Source: a virus
Lineage: Duplodnaviria > Heunggongvirae > Uroviricota > Caudoviricetes
IMG/VR virus record: IMGVR_UViG_2534681759_000003
DNA: 5,715 bases
Reading direction: 5' to 3' (one strand)
Under the pieces are notes generated by a model. The model was not told the DNA's origin, searched no databases, and saw nothing but the letters and a program-made list of their open reading frames with translations. Shown piece after piece: positions 2,582 through 5,715 of this stretch (positions within the stretch are counted from its first letter, which is position 1; each line of letters starts with the position of its first letter). The translations under genes and the position numbers were made by a program.

Positions 2582-3253
2582 TCAGCGACCAATCACCACA
2601 ACCTGACCACCATCCCCTTCGTCTGCCGTGCTGATCTCCTGAGAAACCACGCGTGACCCCACGCGCATTTCACCGTACAGAACCGGCAGAACATTACCCT
2701 GGGCAACCATGTTATCCAGGGAGGAGAAATAGGTGTTCTGTTTGCCGTTATCCGTTGTCTGTGTACGGGGAGTTCTGGCTTTCGGTGCCAGCATCTGCGC
2801 CACACCACCGAGCACCATACTGGCACCGAGAGAAAACAGGATGCCGGTCATACCACCGGTCCCAATGGCTGCCCCCCATGCTGCAAGGGTGGCTCCGGCG
2901 GTAAAGAATGATCCGGCAATGGCGGCAGCCCCCAGGACAATCTGGAATACGCCACCTGACTTGGCCCCGGCGACTCTGGGAACAATATGAATCACAGCGC
3001 CATCAGGCAGAGTCTCATGTAACTGCGCCGTTAACCCGGACGTGCTGACGTCCCGCCCGGCAATCCGTACCTGATACCAGCCGTCGCTCAGTTTCTGACG
3101 AAACGCCGGGAGCTGTGTGGCCAGTGCCCGGATGGCTTCAGCCCCCGTTTTCACACGAAGGTCGATGCGGCGACCAAATCGTTGTAAATCCCCGTAAAGG
3201 CAGATGCGCGCCATGCCCGGTGACGCCAGAGGGAGTGTGTGCGTCGCTGCCAT
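2582..3253 (-). CDS. I: Tail assembly protein I (N-terminal ubiquitin-like beta-grasp domain, C-terminal Gly/Ala-rich hydrophobic region)
   Basis: 223-aa ORF in the track (MAATHTLPLASPGMARICLYGDLQRF...QVVVIGR), recognised as lambda gpI. Putative SD GAGAGG about 11 nt upstream (complement of 3265..3270). Start lies 103 nt inside the 3' end of K, as in lambda. Stop TGA at 2584..2582. Confidence 0.93.
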   Translation of the reverse strand: MAATHTLPLASPGMARICLYGDLQRFGRRIDLRVKTGAEAIRALATQLPAFRQKLSDGWYQVRIAGRDVSTSGLTAQLHETLPDGAVIHIVPRVAGAKSGGVFQIVLGAAAIAGSFFTAGATLAAWGAAIGTGGMTGILFSLGASMVLGGVAQMLAPKARTPRTQTTDNGKQNTYFSSLDNMVAQGNVLPVLYGEMRVGSRVVSQEISTADEGDGGQVVVIGR

Positions 3254-3894
3254 TTGTCGGTGTACCTCTCTCGTTTGCTCAGTTGTTCAGGAATATGGTG
3301 CAGCAGCTCGCCGTCGCCGCAGTAAATTGCGGCGTGATTCGGCACTGATGAACCAAAACAGCACAGCAGCACATCGCCCGGCTGTGCCGCTGACAACGGC
3401 ACCTGATACAGCCCCGTCGCCTCCAGATTATCCAGATAGAGATTCTGGCCGTTACGCCACCAGTCATCCTCACGATAAAAGTCCGGCATCTCAATCCCCG
3501 CCAGATGATAAGCATCCCGGAACAGTGTGTAACAGTCCGTCACACCGTGCTCAAAGCGCCGCCCGGTGAGATGCGGCACACAGCGGAACTTATGAATCGT
3601 CCCCCGGCAGACCAGCCACCACGGCAAATCACTCTGCACCTGCAGCCGCCGGTCGGTCTCACTCAGCCAGGGCAGACCACCGGGGTGGCTGTGGACCAGC
3701 GCCACAATCTCACCCTGCATCTCTGCCCGCAGCCAGTCCTCCGGCGACATCCGGAAATACTCCTCCGGCTCACCGGAGATATTCACGCAGGGAAAATATC
3801 TTTCCCCCTCCGGCGTGCTTACCACGAAGCCGCACGACTCCGCTGGCGCACATCGCCGGGCGTGCGCCAGAATCGCTGATTCTGTCTGTGTCAT
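3151..3894 (-). CDS. K: Tail tip assembly protein K: N-terminal JAB/MPN (JAMM) metallopeptidase-like domain plus C-terminal NlpC/P60 cysteine peptidase-like domain (long 247-aa form; alternative internal start at 3750 gives the classical 199-aa form)
   Basis: 247-aa ORF in the track. JAMM signature H68-S-H70-x7-S78-x2-D81 (HSHPGGLPWLSETD) with a candidate upstream Glu in AESCGFVV (E19). NlpC/P60-like Cys in GVTDCYTLF and His residues in NHAAIYCG / LLHHIP. ATG at 3894 lies 5 nt after the L stop. Internal Met49 (3750..3748) is preceded by GGAGGAG (complement of 3760..3766) with a 9-nt spacer. Confidence 0.88.
   Translation of the reverse strand: MTQTESAILAHARRCAPAESCGFVVSTPEGERYFPCVNISGEPEEYFRMSPEDWLRAEMQGEIVALVHSHPGGLPWLSETDRRLQVQSDLPWWLVCRGTIHKFRCVPHLTGRRFEHGVTDCYTLFRDAYHLAGIEMPDFYREDDWWRNGQNLYLDNLEATGLYQVPLSAAQPGDVLLCCFGSSVPNHAAIYCGDGELLHHIPEQLSKRERYTDKWQRRTHSLWRHRAWRASAFTGIYNDLVAASTFV
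3760..3766 (-). promoter_or_regulatory. K: Shine-Dalgarno sequence (GGAGGAG) serving the internal K start codon at 3750..3748
   Basis: Complement of plus-strand ctcctcc at 3760..3766, 9 nt upstream of the in-frame ATG that corresponds to the classical 199-aa K start. Confidence 0.5.
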
Positions 3895-3899
3895 GGGAT

Positions 3900-4598
3900 T
3901 TACTGCGAAAGTTTGTTAATGGAAAGGAAGCCGCCAAAGTTGCCGACGTTATTGCGGAACTTACAGCCACTCAGGCATTTGCTGCATTTATCCTTCGTGA
4001 TATCGGACGTCGGCTGGTCATATTCATCCGCGACCGCCGGACCGCTATAACCGCACTCATCGCCGCGATAGGTCCAGGTGCAGGTGTTGGCCAGCATGAT
4101 ACGTCCCGGAAAAACAGCGCCATCCGTTTCAGTCGGCGTGGACAGTACAAAAGAGGCACTCACCGCGCTCAGTTCGCTGCACTGCTCGATGCGCCAGCGG
4201 CTGATCACCTCCTGCTCCGGATCGGCTTCGCTGTTTCCGTTGACGAAGTTCACCGCATCCAGAAAGCGGGCGTAAACCTTACGCCGGACCACCGTTCCGC
4301 CGACCAGACTCTGCAGATCTTCCGCCATCCCGGTGATCATGCCGTGCAGGTTAGAGACCGTCAGTGTCGGACGGGCAGCACTGCCCTTGCCGTTCATCTC
4401 AAATCCACTCCCCTGAATGGGATAGGCCTGATACTGCCGACTCTGCCAGGTGACAGACTCACCTTTTTCGTTCTGCTCATTACAGAAAAAGTAGCGATCT
4501 CCACCGACCTCTGTCAGGTCGATTTCCCAGAGCACCACGCTGGCCGACTGCTCCGCACGGGTGCATTCATTCAGTGTTTCCTGCCGGATATCCTGCAT
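3900..4598 (-). CDS. L: Tail tip protein L (Cys-rich C-terminus; lambda gpL is reported to bind an iron-sulfur cluster)
   Basis: 232-aa ORF in the track (MQDIRQETLNECTRAEQSASVVLWEIDLTEVGGDRYFFCNEQ...FLSINKLSQ), recognised as lambda gpL. Its ATG overlaps the M stop by one base (minus-strand TGATG, 4600..4596). C-terminal region has five Cys (..NTCTW..DECGY..DKCSKCLSGCKF..). Confidence 0.93.
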   Translation of the reverse strand: MQDIRQETLNECTRAEQSASVVLWEIDLTEVGGDRYFFCNEQNEKGESVTWQSRQYQAYPIQGSGFEMNGKGSAARPTLTVSNLHGMITGMAEDLQSLVGGTVVRRKVYARFLDAVNFVNGNSEADPEQEVISRWRIEQCSELSAVSASFVLSTPTETDGAVFPGRIMLANTCTWTYRGDECGYSGPAVADEYDQPTSDITKDKCSKCLSGCKFRNNVGNFGGFLSINKLSQ

Positions 4599-4927
4599 CA
4601 GTTCACCACCTGTTCAAACTCTGCGCTGAACTCAACACGCAGCATACTGACCCGCGACGACCATTTTGCGCAGGTCACCTTTATCTGCCGCCACTCATAA
4701 GGCGGCGTCCACAGAAAGGCTTTCCAGCCCCCGTGCTCTTCCAGAAACGACTCCAGTACCGTGGCCTCCTCACGGGGGACAGAAAGCGTCACGCTGTACG
4801 TTTTCAGGTTGGCATTCAGCCCGGCAGGCGCTCGCTGGGAATAGCCATCACCAAAGCGCACCTTTCTTACAGAAGGGGCCGAAGCCACATCCATACCGGG
4901 TTTCACTTTCCAGCGGAAGGTTTTCAT
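4598..4927 (-). CDS. M: Tail tip protein M
   Basis: 109-aa ORF in the track (MKTFRWKVKPGMDVASAPSVRKVRFGDGYSQRAPAG...EFEQVVN), recognised as lambda gpM. Strong SD GGAGGTGG (complement of 4931..4938) 3 nt before the ATG at 4927..4925. The start sits in an ATGA context that in lambda also supplies the H stop codon. Confidence 0.92.
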   Translation of the reverse strand: MKTFRWKVKPGMDVASAPSVRKVRFGDGYSQRAPAGLNANLKTYSVTLSVPREEATVLESFLEEHGGWKAFLWTPPYEWRQIKVTCAKWSSRVSMLRVEFSAEFEQVVN

Positions 4928-5055
4928 CGTCCACCTCCGGAGAACAGGCCACCATCACGCATCTGTGTCTGAATTTCATCACGGGCACCCTTGCGGGCCA
5001 TGTCATACACTGCCTTCAGAGCTGTGGACCTATCTGACCGTTCGTGCCGTCGTTG
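4924..5055 (-). other. H: Out-of-frame 3' remnant of H: 43 open codons ending at the TGA that overlaps the M start (ATGA); not joined to the main H frame in this sequence
   Basis: Hand translation of the minus strand in the frame ending with stop 4926..4924 gives QRRHERSRDSTALKAVYDMARKGARDEIQTQMRDGGLFSGGGR*, bounded upstream by TAA at 5058..5056. The ALKAVYDM...GGLFSGGGR part looks like genuine coding sequence, and I believe it matches the lambda gpH C-terminus (from memory). It is offset by one nucleotide from the main H frame. Confidence 0.5.
4931..4938 (-). promoter_or_regulatory. M: Shine-Dalgarno sequence (GGAGGTGG) for M
   Basis: Complement of plus-strand ccacctcc at 4931..4938, 3 nt upstream of the M ATG at 4927..4925. 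Confidence 0.55.
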
Positions 5056-5715
5056 TTAATCACCACATGGTTATTCTGCTTAAAAGTCATGCCTGCGGCC
5101 CGCCGCATCTGCGCCGGGCTGCCCGGTGTACCGACATAACCGCCGGTGGCATAGCCGCGCATCAGCCGGTAAAGATTCCCCACGCCAATCCGGCTGGTTG
5201 CCTCCTTCGTGAAGACAAATTCACCACGGTGAACAATCCCCGCTGGCTCATATTTGCCGCCGGTTCCCGTAAATCCTCCGGTTGCAAAATGGAATTTCGC
5301 CGCAGCGGCCTGAATGGCTGTACCGCCTGACGCGGATGCGCCGCCACCAACAGCCCCGCCAATGGCGCTGCCGATACTCCCGACAATCCCCACCATTGCC
5401 TGCTTAAGCAGAATTTCTGTCATCATGGACAGCACGGAACGGGTGAAGCTGCGCCAGTTCTGCTCACTGCCGGTCAGCATCGCCGCCATATTCTGTGCAA
5501 TACCATCAAAGGTCTGCGTGGCTGCACTTTTTACCTGCGACATACTGTCCGTGGCGCTCTCTTCCCACTCACTCCAGCCGGACTTCAGGCCTGCCATCCA
5601 GCTCCCGCGAAGCTGGTCTTCAGCCGCCCAGGTCTTTTTCTGCTCTGACATGACGTTATTCAGCGCCAGCGGATTATCGCCATACTGTTCCTTCAGGCGC
5701 TGTTCCGTGGCTTCC
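5016..5715 (-). CDS. H: Tail length tape-measure protein H, C-terminal portion (5' end beyond the window); frame ends at TGA 5018..5016, earlier than expected from lambda
   Basis: The minus-strand frame reported as 5016..5651 (211 aa from an internal Met) presumably continues upstream to the window edge (not verified codon by codon). Contains a Gly/Ala/Ser-rich hydrophobic segment (VGIVGSIGSAIGGAVGGGASASGGTAIQAAAAKF) and ends ...NNHVVINNDGTNGQIGPQL. Position immediately upstream of M matches lambda gene H. Confidence 0.85.
   Translation of the reverse strand, partial: EATEQRLKEQYGDNPLALNNVMSEQKKTWAAEDQLRGSWMAGLKSGWSEWEESATDSMSQVKSAATQTFDGIAQNMAAMLTGSEQNWRSFTRSVLSMMTEILLKQAMVGIVGSIGSAIGGAVGGGASASGGTAIQAAAAKFHFATGGFTGTGGKYEPAGIVHRGEFVFTKEATSRIGVGNLYRLMRGYATGGYVGTPGSPAQMRRAAGMTFKQNNHVVINNDGTNGQIGPQL

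What the first reader, a model, noticed from the sequence alone, without database searches (positions are those of the whole stretch)
2783..3894. Ubiquitin-like I paired with the JAB-peptidase K: a phage-encoded Ub-like/deubiquitinase-like pair
gpI has an N-terminal domain proposed in the literature to be a ubiquitin-like beta-grasp fold (about residues 1-95), ending in AGAKSGG (GG at residues 100-101, 2951..2956). This is followed directly by a roughly 55-residue Gly/Ala-rich hydrophobic segment (VFQIVLGAAAIAGSFFTAGATLAAWGAAIGTGGMTGILFSLGASMVLGGVAQMLAP, about 2783..2950). The gene immediately upstream, K, encodes a JAMM metallopeptidase motif plus an NlpC/P60-like domain. This arrangement suggests K may cleave I after the GG, or that the pair acts on a host or tail substrate. 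The mechanism remains poorly characterised experimentally.
Basis: partly seen in the sequence, partly recalled or inferred. Interest (0 to 1): 0.45.

Follow-up and report, generated by a model that had tools for sequence, protein, structure and literature searches.

The report
Lambda tail genes K and I

Summary
On the minus strand the window carries a lambdoid tail-tip module (H', M, L, K, I, J'), 96-97.5% identical to lambda and phiSTEC1575-Stx2k. Every quoted coordinate and residue is correct.

- **Conservation:** the catalytic residues, the K-then-I gene order and the boundary motif G-[SA]-K-x-[GAS]-G | hydrophobic-F-Q persist from Enterobacteria to Pseudomonas, Burkholderiales and Pasteurellaceae.

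The interpretation that K cuts I after the terminal Gly is supported but already known.

- Iyer, Burroughs and Aravind predicted it in 2006.
- Cryo-EM shows only gpI residues about 101/134-223 in virions, forming the tail plug.
- gpK is absent from virions.
- An F-pyocin preprint shows by mass spectrometry that the homologue's N-terminus is removed.

My attempt to model K-I docking was inconclusive. Novelty: already known. Interest is low. A side observation: this window's H gene carries a private frameshift that removes the helix which binds gpI.

The parts
3151..3894 (-). Gene K, long form (247 aa): tail-tip assembly protein with a JAB/JAMM domain followed by a NlpC/P60 domain. Its ATG lies 5 nt after the L stop codon.
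   Evidence: ORF list. Pfam gives PF14464 plus PF00877. The 247-aa form is the dominant database annotation and is the one annotated in phiSTEC1575-Stx2k. Homologues down to 51% identity start within 3 residues of this ATG.
3751..3894 (-). K residues 1-48, which are missing from the classical 199-aa lambda annotation (that form starts at M49). They contain the JAMM glutamate E19 (3838..3840).
   Evidence: The lambda imm21 record annotates the short form. Residues 1-40 are modelled at pLDDT 86-94 as helix 3-15 and strands 20-27 and 30-36 of the JAB fold. I8, L9, A12, P17, E19, C21, G22, V24 and V25 are invariant.
3583..3888 (-). JAB/MPN+ (JAMM) metalloprotease domain of K, residues 3-104. The zinc-site motif H68-S-H70-x7-S78-x-x-D81 lies at 3652..3693.
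3223..3564 (-). NlpC/P60 (C40) papain-like peptidase domain of K, residues 111-224. The triad is C121 (3532..3534), H187 (3334..3336) and H199 (3298..3300). Its substrate is unknown.
   Evidence: Pfam PF00877, E 1e-12. The triad residues are invariant in homologues at 51-80% identity. The AF2 model of this domain has only moderate confidence, pLDDT about 60-65.
3151..3253 (-). K/I overlap of 103 nt; I is read 2 nt downstream of the K frame. The K tail motif FTGIYNDL (3175..3198) and the gpI motif LYGDLQRF (3176..3199) are read from the same nucleotides.
   Evidence: Two-frame translation. The same dual coding occurs in Pasteurellaceae locus L083 and Sodalis locus L098. In L085 a roughly 450-nt insert separates the genes, yet K keeps FNGIFNDL.
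2582..3253 (-). Gene I (223 aa from M1). An alternative start at M14 (3212..3214) would give 210 aa.
   Evidence: ORF list. 99% identical to PDB chains named 'Tail tip assembly protein I' in 8iyk, 8iyl, 8k35 and 8xcg. Identical to the phiSTEC1575-Stx2k protein. A 5268-member cluster and the distant homologues start at the M14 equivalent.
2975..3217 (-). Ubiquitin-like beta-grasp domain of gpI (residues 13-93), of the ThiS/MoaD/SAMP/Urm1 type.
2951..2974 (-). Flexible C-terminal tail of the ubiquitin-like domain (residues 94-101, VAGAKSGG). The proposed scissile bond follows G101 (2951..2953).
   Evidence: Residues 96-104 have pLDDT below 50. G96 is kept in 57 of 61 diverse homologues, G101 in 46 of 61, G100 in 35 of 61. 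Boundary consensus in 13 genome loci. Lambda gpI is resolved from residue 101 onward in the closed tail (PMC11101478).
2783..2950 (-). Gly/Ala-rich hydrophobic hairpin (residues 102-157; helices H1 and H2 in the structural literature). It sits in the tail-tip lumen and is proposed to insert into the outer membrane at infection.
   Evidence: Composition and hydropathy. G108, G143 and G150 are invariant. H1, H2 and the membrane-insertion proposal are described in PMC11101478; PMC10721106 likewise notes the hydrophobic residues 137-152.
2585..2782 (-). gpI C-terminal structural part (residues 158-223). It holds the plug (159-175, 2729..2779) and the beta-strands that extend gpJ sheets. The trimer closes the tail tube and holds the gpH C-terminal helices.
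   Evidence: PDB chains 9e7m (133-222) and 8iyk. PMC10721106, PMC11101478 and PMC12617516. F176, N181, G186, P190, G194 and G199 are conserved.

Best explanation
The window encodes the lambda-type tail-tip assembly pair gpK and gpI.

**The precursor.** gpI is made as a precursor with four parts:
- an N-terminal SAMP/MoaD-like ubiquitin-like domain (residues 13-93);
- a floppy tail ending ...G-A-K-S-G-G101;
- a hydrophobic helical hairpin (102-157);
- a C-terminal plug region (158-223).

**The proposed steps.**
1. The precursor joins gpJ and gpL in the tail-tip initiator.
2. gpK in its 247-aa form, which alone carries a complete JAMM site (E19, H68, H70, S78, D81), recognises the ubiquitin-like domain.
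3. gpK threads the domain's C-terminal tail into its zinc site and hydrolyses the ordinary peptide bond after the terminal Gly. This is the same chemistry that deubiquitinases use on linear ubiquitin fusions and that archaeal desampylases use on SAMP fusions.
4. The ubiquitin-like domain and gpK leave.
5. The fragment of about 12.4 kDa (about 102-223) stays as the trimeric plug. It closes the tube, grips the C-terminal helices of the tape measure gpH, and can later insert its hairpin into the outer membrane.
6. Cleavage therefore works as an assembly checkpoint. It is not a conjugation or signalling system.

**Shown here:** the folds, the catalytic motifs, their conservation, the gene order and the boundary motif.

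**Shown by others:** only the C-terminal part of gpI is in virions; gpK is absent from virions; the N-terminus is removed in the F-pyocin homologue; and a conference report states that gpK cleaves gpI only after gpI has joined the tip complex.

**Inferred:** the exact scissile bond, that the JAB domain rather than NlpC/P60 is the catalyst, and what the NlpC/P60 domain does.
For: **Identity**
- 96-97.5% nucleotide identity to lambda and phiSTEC1575-Stx2k over the whole window.
- gpI is 99% identical to the PDB 'Tail tip assembly protein I' chains.

**Substrate side**
- Pfam Lambda_tail_I.
- AF2 beta-grasp with a disordered C-terminal tail.
- P92, G96, G101 and G108 are conserved in 61 diverse homologues.
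- The boundary motif G-[SA]-K-x-[GAS]-G | [LVIT]-F-Q recurs in 13 genome loci from several orders.

**Enzyme side**
- Prok-JAB and NLPC_P60 score above the Pfam cut-offs.
- JAMM and C40 catalytic residues are invariant at 51-80% identity.
- The JAB fold is confidently modelled, including residues 1-48.
- The best NCBIfam resemblance is to the desampylase family.

**Linkage**
- A JAB+NlpC gene lies directly upstream of the gpI homologue in L083 and L085.
- The same holds in 9 of 13 further loci, including the F-pyocin locus L087.

**Literature**
- Prediction of exactly this cleavage (PMC1779556).
- gpI resolved only from residue 101, 134 or 135 onward.
- gpK absent from virions by mass spectrometry.
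- The PA0640 N-terminus is present in stalled tips but absent from mature F-pyocin, and the K homologue PA0639 is essential.
Against: - I found no peer-reviewed paper with primary data on the cleavage in the searchable library. The direct claim rests on a conference summary.
- My single-chain K-I fusion model did not dock the gpI tail into K. The tail stayed below pLDDT 50 and pTM was 0.37. That test is inconclusive, because the alignment rows were unpaired and no coordinates were available to inspect.
- The penultimate Gly is not conserved (35 of 61). The F-pyocin homologue has S-G.
- The F-pyocin preprint reports that the N-terminus is also lost when PA0640 is expressed alone in E. coli. Non-specific proteolysis can therefore produce a similar product.
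- Some gpI homologues have no K gene directly upstream (4 of 13 loci). Iyer et al. also list phages whose K homologue has only the NlpC/P60 domain.
Confidence: 0.82

Rival explanations
1. The NlpC/P60 cysteine-peptidase domain of gpK, not the JAB domain, cuts gpI. On this view the JAB domain only binds the ubiquitin-like domain, or has another substrate.
For: The C121/H187/H199 triad is intact and invariant. [quoted passage not shown] The conference summary does not state which active site was mutated.
Against: All five JAMM catalytic residues are invariant, which would not be expected for a mere binding module. JAMM enzymes are the known proteases for SAMP/MoaD/ThiS-type ubiquitin-like proteins, and both partners here match that pairing. 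All eight upstream K genes scanned with Pfam keep the JAB domain, and a ninth (L091) carries the JAMM motif. The summary calls the relevant part of gpK its 'deubiquitinating domain'.
Confidence: 0.08
2. There is no dedicated cleavage. The ubiquitin-like domain either stays attached but is disordered and invisible in cryo-EM, or it is trimmed non-specifically by host proteases. gpK would then act only as an assembly chaperone.
For: Ge and Wang 2024 treat the N-terminal domain as 'unresolved' rather than absent, and speculate that it might be the missing cell-wall enzyme. PA0640 expressed alone in E. coli loses its N-terminus to unknown host proteases. Lambda virion mass spectrometry found only one gpI peptide, which is not informative.
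Against: The N-terminus of PA0640 is detectable in stalled precursors but not in mature particles. The plenary reports gpK-dependent cleavage. The domain folds as a beta-grasp carrier, not as a hydrolase. An intact, conserved JAMM site next to a conserved terminal Gly is hard to explain otherwise.
Confidence: 0.06
3. After release, the ubiquitin-like domain acts as a true modifier or sulphur carrier. Its exposed C-terminal Gly would be activated by a host E1-like enzyme (MoeB or ThiF) and either conjugated to a target or thiocarboxylated, for example in connection with the gpL iron-sulphur cluster. K would serve as both the maturing and the deconjugating enzyme.
For: The fold is closest to SAMP1, MoaD, ThiS and CysO, which are sulphur carriers or modifiers with C-terminal Gly-Gly. 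Iyer et al. raised thiolation as a possibility. gpL carries a [4Fe-4S] cluster.
Against: The window has no E1- or E2-like gene; it holds only H', M, L, K, I and J'. The diglycine is not conserved (G100 in 35 of 61; S-G or A-G in many), whereas the known carriers of this type end in Gly-Gly. No conjugate has been reported in virion mass spectrometry.
Confidence: 0.02
4. The pair acts on a host substrate, for instance with K as a cell-wall hydrolase for DNA entry or lysis.
For: NlpC/P60 enzymes are commonly peptidoglycan endopeptidases. NCBIfam gives a weak match to 'putative phage cell wall peptidase'.
Against: gpK is absent from virions by mass spectrometry and from all cryo-EM maps, so it cannot act at entry. 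The TIGR02219 score of 26.5 is far below its cut-off of 81.9. K mutants are tail-assembly defective, and the F-pyocin K-homologue deletion gives tubes without tips.
Confidence: 0.02

Closest known systems
Bacteriophage lambda gpK (TAPK) and gpI (TAPI; also called the insertion, plug or tail-hub internal protein)
   Same: This is the same pair. gpI differs from lambda at 2 residues (T132A, T164I) and is identical to phiSTEC1575-Stx2k. gpK differs at 3-4 residues. Gene order, the 103-nt overlap and all motifs are the same.
   Different: K carries E45, R56 and T80 where relatives have A, Q and A; T80 sits next to the zinc ligand D81. The neighbouring H gene has a private frameshift.
F-type pyocin PA0639/PA0640 (PyoF8/PyoF9) of Pseudomonas
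   Same: A JAB+NlpC/P60 gene lies directly upstream of a gpI homologue with the same layout: ubiquitin-like domain, G-S-K-x-x-G boundary, hydrophobic hairpin and plug. Only the C-terminal part is seen in particles, the N-terminus is removed on maturation, and the K homologue is essential.
   Different: About 40% identity. The boundary reads S-G, not G-G. The genes do not overlap (55-nt gap in L087). The particle is a bacteriocin, not a phage.
Archaeal SAMP1/SAMP2 with the desampylases HvJAMM1 and PfJAMM1
   Different: The pair is not a member of that family: 31 bits against a 130-bit cut-off. There is no E1 (UbaA) partner and no conjugation cycle. Here the ubiquitin-like domain is a cis-fused, single-use handle on a structural protein.
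CysO-Mec+ (Mycobacterium) and QbsE-QbsD (Pseudomonas): bacterial JAMM peptidases that trim ThiS/MoaD-type carriers
   Different: Those systems serve sulphur transfer in biosynthesis and include an E1-like adenylase. The phage pair has neither.
Eukaryotic JAMM deubiquitinases (Rpn11, CSN5, BRCC36, AMSH) and the bacterial defence enzymes Cap3 and BilC
   Different: Those enzymes remove isopeptide-linked modifiers within conjugation systems (E1, E2, E3, or Cap2/BilB-D). K is fused to a second peptidase domain and acts on a linear precursor during virion assembly.
Phage T5 pb3 plug domain
   Same: It is the functional counterpart of the gpI C-terminal fragment: a trimeric plug that closes the tube and is proposed to meet the outer membrane (PMC10721106).
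   Different: In T5 the plug is an insertion within the hub protein itself. Nothing I read describes a ubiquitin-like handle or a dedicated protease for it.

Membership tests
Lambda_tail_I (Pfam PF06805) / phage tail assembly protein I | Match to the family profile above the curated gathering score | tested here: met
   99.9 bits against a cut-off of 23.8, residues 14-97. PHROG 32 'tail assembly protein', E 1e-83. 99% identity to lambda gpI chains in the PDB.
ThiS/MoaD/SAMP/Urm1-type ubiquitin-like beta-grasp | Beta-grasp fold (mixed sheet gripping one helix) | tested here: met
ThiS/MoaD/SAMP/Urm1-type ubiquitin-like beta-grasp | Flexible C-terminal tail ending in Gly-Gly | tested here: inconclusive
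   The window has G100-G101 on a tail with pLDDT below 50. Across the family only the last Gly is well kept (46 of 61, and nearly all of 13 loci). The penultimate position is G, A or S (35 of 61 are G).
ThiS/MoaD/SAMP/Urm1-type ubiquitin-like beta-grasp | Partner E1-like adenylating enzyme that activates the C-terminal carboxylate | tested here: not met
   The window has no such gene; its ORFs are H', M, L, K, I and J'. Use of a host enzyme cannot be excluded with these tools.
JAMM/MPN+ metalloprotease (Pfam Prok-JAB, PF14464) | Motif E-x(n)-H-x-H-x(7)-S-x-x-D | tested here: met
   E19, H68, H70, S78 and D81 are present and invariant in homologues at 51-80% identity. The motif is also present in 9 of 13 distant loci.
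JAMM/MPN+ metalloprotease (Pfam Prok-JAB, PF14464) | Profile match above the gathering score, and the MPN fold | tested here: met
JAMM/MPN+ metalloprotease (Pfam Prok-JAB, PF14464) | Zinc-dependent hydrolysis after the ubiquitin-like domain's C-terminal Gly | not testable with these tools
   This needs biochemistry. It is reported only in a conference summary (PMC12908700).
Desampylase (NCBIfam NF041370, equivalog) | Score at or above the curated cut-off | tested here: not met
   31.3 bits against a cut-off of 130. The domain works like a desampylase but is not a member of that family.
NlpC/P60 (C40) papain-like peptidase (Pfam PF00877) | Profile match above the gathering score, and a Cys-His-polar catalytic triad | tested here: met
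   48.3 bits against 23. D120-C121, H187 and H199 are invariant. The narrower TIGR02219 phage_NlpC_fam is not met (26.5 against 81.9).
Ubiquitin-like conjugation system (eukaryotic Ub, archaeal sampylation, bacterial Bil/Bub, CBASS Cap2-Cap3) | E1 (and E2) enzymes, with isopeptide conjugation of the ubiquitin-like protein to targets | tested here: not met
   No E1 or E2 domain appears in any ORF of the window or in the neighbouring genes of the related loci examined. The ubiquitin-like domain is fused in cis to its 'target'.

The most novel reading that the evidence does not exclude
gpK may have a second substrate. The protease that converts the tape measure gpH into gpH* plus a C-terminal piece of about 14 kDa is unknown (PMC12617516).

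- Lambda gpH, and this window at 5322..5339, carries GGASASGG(721)|TAIQ.
- Cutting there would leave a 132-residue, 13.8-kDa fragment.
- The site resembles the gpI boundary AGAKSGG(101)|VFQI.
- The role of the conserved NlpC/P60 domain of K is unexplained.

K could therefore be the long-sought gpH-processing enzyme, through either of its active sites. The evidence is thin. That region holds several GG pairs, so the mass match is weak. The tape-measure C-termini of the Pseudomonas and Oxalobacter loci show no motif resembling their own gpI boundary.
Probability: 0.07. Interest if true: 0.5.

Novelty: already known. Interest (0 to 1): 0.15.

Why it matters
The pair is a tidy example of ubiquitin-type biochemistry used for virion assembly rather than for signalling. 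A beta-grasp handle is recognised by a JAMM protease, which cuts after the terminal Gly. This links phage tail morphogenesis to the prokaryotic roots of the ubiquitin system.

For this scan the value is confirmatory.

Two practical points follow:
- The classical 199-aa annotation of lambda K cuts off part of the protease fold, including the catalytic glutamate. The 247-aa form should be used.
- The conserved cleavage signature is G-[SA]-K-x-[small]-G followed by hydrophobic-F-Q, not strictly GG.

Neither point changes understanding of the system.

Tried and rejected
1. **Programmed K-to-I frameshift fusion.** Databases hold many NlpC/P60+gpI or JAB+NlpC+gpI fusion proteins. Nearly all are one- or two-sequence clusters, and their junctions all differ (RRT|LPLASPG, RRTH|PLASPG, RHQ|GMARI, CNDF|SRRIDL). 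By my own reading, the overlap has no canonical slippery heptamer (sequence). I take them as sporadic frameshifts or deletions, some near a CACACAC run at about 3233. Rejected.
2. **P0288.** This 2783-aa protein has 23 gpI-like stretches. It is a translated tandem DNA repeat with a weak chance resemblance. Rejected as an artefact.
3. **K-I complex modelling.** The first alignment for the natural fusion P0151 (A6) misplaced the K rows onto the gpI part and was discarded. A corrected alignment (A7, checked) gave good domains but no ordering of the gpI tail, with pTM 0.37. Inconclusive.
4. **Diverse loci from viral contigs.** The alignment query failed. A narrower one returned only loci 98-100% identical to the window. 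A distant single query returned one fragment. Diversity came instead from encoding-contig look-ups and the genome scan.
5. **Third protein search.** Run with a diverse profile, it still returned mostly Enterobacteria.
6. **gpH processing by K.** No boundary-like motif appears in the tape measures of distant loci. The idea is kept only as a low-probability speculation.
7. **Search for a full paper on gpK cleaving gpI.** Nothing was found beyond the conference summary.
Full report
**What the window is.** All long, family-matching ORFs lie on the minus strand.

| Gene | Coordinates |
|---|---|
| H (C-terminal part) | frame ends at 5016 |
| M | 4598..4927 |
| L | 3900..4598 |
| K | 3151..3894 |
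| I | 2582..3253 |
| J (start only) | below about 2520 |

The whole 5715 bases match lambdoid phages end to end. Identity is 97.5% to phiSTEC1575-Stx2k and about 96.3% to lambda itself. Those records annotate H, M, L, K, I and J in this order.

**Check of the observation.** A script confirmed every coordinate and residue number in the finding.
- AGAKSGG is gpI residues 95-101, with GG at 2951..2956.
- The 56-residue hydrophobic stretch is residues 102-157, at 2783..2950.
- K residues E19, H68, H70, S78, D81 and C121 are as stated.
- The hydrophobic stretch is 43% Gly+Ala and lies in a 59-residue run with no charged residue or His. It has two hydropathy peaks, at 102-120 and 138-156.
- Pfam places Lambda_tail_I at gpI 14-97, Prok-JAB at K 3-104 and NLPC_P60 at K 111-224. 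All score above the curated cut-offs.

**The ubiquitin-like domain.**
- I modelled gpI residues 1-104 with AlphaFold2 and a 68-sequence alignment spanning 27-91% identity. The core (residues 13-93) is confident, at pLDDT 82-91, with the order beta-beta-alpha-beta-(alpha)-beta.
- The first 12 residues are poorly ordered, and the tail from residue 96 through the GG is below pLDDT 50.
- Ubiquitin, SUMO and UBX domains scored about 5.

The domain is therefore a beta-grasp of the ThiS/MoaD/SAMP branch, as Iyer et al. inferred from sequence.

**The boundary.**
- In 61 diverse full-length homologues (below 60% identity, drawn from a search with 3200 hits), the conserved positions are P92 (59 of 61), G96 (57 of 61), G101 (46 of 61) and G108 (60 of 61). 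G100 is kept in only 35 of 61.
- In 13 genome loci from Pseudomonas, Serratia, Paraburkholderia, Achromobacter, Comamonas, Sodalis and others, the boundary reads P-x3-G-[SA]-K-x-[GAS]-G followed by [LVIT]-F-Q-x-[VI]-[LIV]-G.
- The two solved Pseudomonas homologues read GSKTGG|LFQ and GSKQSG|LFQ.
- The signature is thus a terminal Gly after a small residue, not a strict diglycine.

**The protease.**
- The JAMM residues E19, H68, H70, S78 and D81, and the C40 triad C121, H187 and H199, are invariant in homologues at 51-80% identity. These include a Pasteurellaceae prophage and a metagenomic contig.
- All those homologues begin within three residues of the long-form ATG, which lies 5 nt after the L stop.
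- In a model of the natural fusion protein P0151, residues 1-40 are the best-modelled part of K, at pLDDT 86-94. They form a helix and two strands of the JAB fold.
- The classical lambda annotation starts at M49 (199 aa). It lacks E19 and an integral part of the fold.
- Current databases mostly hold the 247-aa form.
- NCBIfam's best resemblance, far below its cut-off, is to the haloarchaeal desampylase.
- Substrate and enzyme thus each resemble one half of the archaeal SAMP/desampylase pair, without belonging to those families.

**Linkage of the two genes.** A JAB+NlpC/P60 gene lies directly upstream of the gpI homologue in several settings:
- the Pasteurellaceae and metagenomic loci;
- 9 of 13 genome loci, of which eight were confirmed by Pfam;
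- among those, the F-pyocin locus L087, whose gpI homologue is 100% identical to the solved chain 25vf_9 over the 191 residues compared.

The exceptions are a tandem duplicate of the gpI homologue (L088), a small unrelated ORF (L092), a tape measure directly upstream (L097) and a fragmentary contig (L099).

**What the literature already holds.**
- Iyer, Burroughs and Aravind 2006 (PMC1779556) identified the ubiquitin-like domain in 'TAPI' and the JAB and NlpC/P60 domains in 'TAPK', along with their conserved neighbourhood. [quoted passage not shown]
- They believed gpI was not in the tail. Cryo-EM has since shown three copies in the tail-tip lumen. They were resolved from residue 135 (PMC10721106), residue 134 (PMC12617516) or, in the closed tail 8IYK/8IYL, 'from position 101 onward' (PMC11101478).
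- The N-terminal domain has never been seen.
- gpK was not found in virions by mass spectrometry.
- For the F-pyocin homologue PA0640, N-terminal peptides are present in stalled tip precursors but absent from mature particles. The K homologue PA0639 is required for tip formation (preprint 10.64898/2026.02.24.707460).
- I found no full paper with those data in the library.

**Mechanism and its status.** The best-supported account is that gpI is a precursor whose ubiquitin-like domain is a removable handle.
- After gpI is installed with gpJ and gpL, the JAB domain of long-form gpK cuts the peptide bond after G101.
- The ubiquitin-like domain and gpK depart.
- The fragment 102-223 (12.4 kDa) remains as the plug that holds the gpH C-terminal helices.
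- Folds, motifs, conservation and synteny are shown here.
- The virion content of gpI, the absence of gpK and the N-terminal removal are shown by others.
- The exact bond, the responsible active site and the role of the NlpC/P60 domain are inferred.

My attempt to test docking used the natural single-chain fusion P0151 (K 1-218 joined to gpI 7-223). It gave no ordering of the tail and a pTM of 0.37. The rows were unpaired and I could not inspect coordinates, so this neither supports nor refutes the model.

Ge and Wang's suggestion that the gpI N-terminus might be the missing cell-wall enzyme does not fit its beta-grasp fold.

**Rivals.** The report sections weigh four alternatives:
- cleavage by the NlpC/P60 domain;
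- no specific cleavage;
- a true modifier or sulphur-carrier role after release;
- action on a host substrate.

None is excluded outright, but each runs against several observations. Together I give them under 0.2.

**Side observations.**
- K and I overlap by 103 nt. The K tail motif FTGIYNDL and gpI's most conserved motif LYGDLQRF are read from the same bases. This is conserved in the Pasteurellaceae and Sodalis loci. Where an insertion separates the genes, the K tail is still kept.
- More distant loci have no long overlap.
- Distant homologues and a 5268-member cluster start gpI at the M14 equivalent.
- The window's H gene has a 1-nt deletion relative to all 34 relatives checked. The deletion ends the frame at 5016 and puts the last 33 or so codons out of frame. 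Those codons encode the helix that binds the gpI trimer.

**Verdict.** The finding is already known, and interest is low.

Noticed in passing
window 5013..5030 (minus strand), H gene: A 1-nt deletion relative to lambda, phiSTEC1575-Stx2k and all 34 close relatives checked (GGTCC-ACAGCTCTGA against GGTCCGGCTGCTCTGA). It ends the H frame at 5016..5018 (...NGQIGPQL*). The last 33 or so codons (ALKAVYDMARKGARDEIQTQMRDGGLFSGGGR) fall out of frame. Those codons encode the gpH helix (818-849) that binds the gpI trimer in virions. The cause could be a defective prophage or a sequencing error.
   Followed up: partly
window 5079..5117 (minus strand), H gene: A 39-nt patch that differs sharply from every relative checked. 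It encodes GSPAQMRRAAGMTFKQ where lambda has GSMADSRSQASGTFEQ. The length is the same, and pairwise alignment shows it as compensating 4-nt indels, in a window that is otherwise about 96% identical to lambda.
   Followed up: partly
window 3151..3253 (minus strand): Dual coding in the K/I overlap. The K C-terminal motif FTGIYNDL (3175..3198) and the most conserved gpI motif LYGDLQRF (3176..3199) share the same nucleotides, offset by one base. This is conserved in Pasteurellaceae locus L083 and Sodalis locus L098. The K tail motif persists (FNGIFNDL) in L085, where the genes no longer overlap, so the tail appears to be selected in its own right. Its function is unknown.
   Followed up: partly
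window 3212..3214 versus 3251..3253 (minus strand): The start codon of I is ambiguous. Lambda annotates M1 (223 aa), but a 5268-member database cluster and essentially all distant homologues begin at the M14 equivalent (MARICLYG...). Residues 1-12 are disordered in the model. Starting at M14 would shorten the overlap with K to 64 nt, as in Sodalis locus L098.
   Followed up: partly
window 3751..3894 (minus strand): The classical lambda annotation of K (199 aa, from M49, preceded by a GGAGG about 11 nt upstream) omits 48 conserved residues, including the JAMM glutamate E19. Whether a short form is also made from the internal start is not known.
   Followed up: partly
window 3652..3762 (minus strand), K residues 45, 56 and 80: This window's K has E45, R56 and T80 where lambda and phiSTEC1575-Stx2k have A, Q and A. 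T80 sits directly before the zinc ligand D81 (SETD against SEAD).
   Followed up: no
window about 3233..3243 (CGCACACACTC); proteins P0008, P0017, P0151, P0204, P0233 and others: Public databases hold many K-I fusion proteins, and PHROGs has whole families of them (phrog_28576, phrog_35166). Nearly all are one- or two-sequence clusters whose junctions differ, so they look like sporadic frameshifts or deletions in the overlap rather than a programmed event.
   Followed up: yes
L085:797-1245: In one metagenomic relative, a roughly 450-nt insertion separates K from I. It carries a 48-aa ORF that looks hydrophobic on reading its sequence (MLELMDKSKIAKRYVWAISILIIMCVMMWLAPDFLKALADFILTLRKS). This looks like an inserted accessory ('moron') gene.
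   Followed up: no
L088:1834-2442 and L088:2474-3082: Pseudomonas sp. RIT-PI-AD has two gpI homologues in tandem, both with the Lambda_tail_I domain and the G-S-K-R-A-G boundary.
   Followed up: no
L095:1567-2496: In a Symbiopectobacterium genome assembled from a metagenome, one ORF joins an N-terminal piece of gene L, a truncated JAB domain and a NlpC/P60 domain. This is probably prophage decay in a symbiont.
   Followed up: no
P0288 (hit of the representative search): A 2783-aa 'protein' with 23 stretches matching gpI residues 10-63. It is a translated tandem DNA repeat, so the match is an artefact.
   Followed up: yes
window 5322..5339 (minus strand), H gene: The Gly-rich region of gpH contains GGASASGG|TAIQ (lambda residues 714-725). 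Cleavage after G721 would leave a 13.8-kDa C-terminal piece, which matches the reported loss of about 14 kDa in gpH*. The site resembles the gpI boundary AGAKSGG|VFQI. No comparable motif was found in the tape measures of two distant loci.
   Followed up: partly
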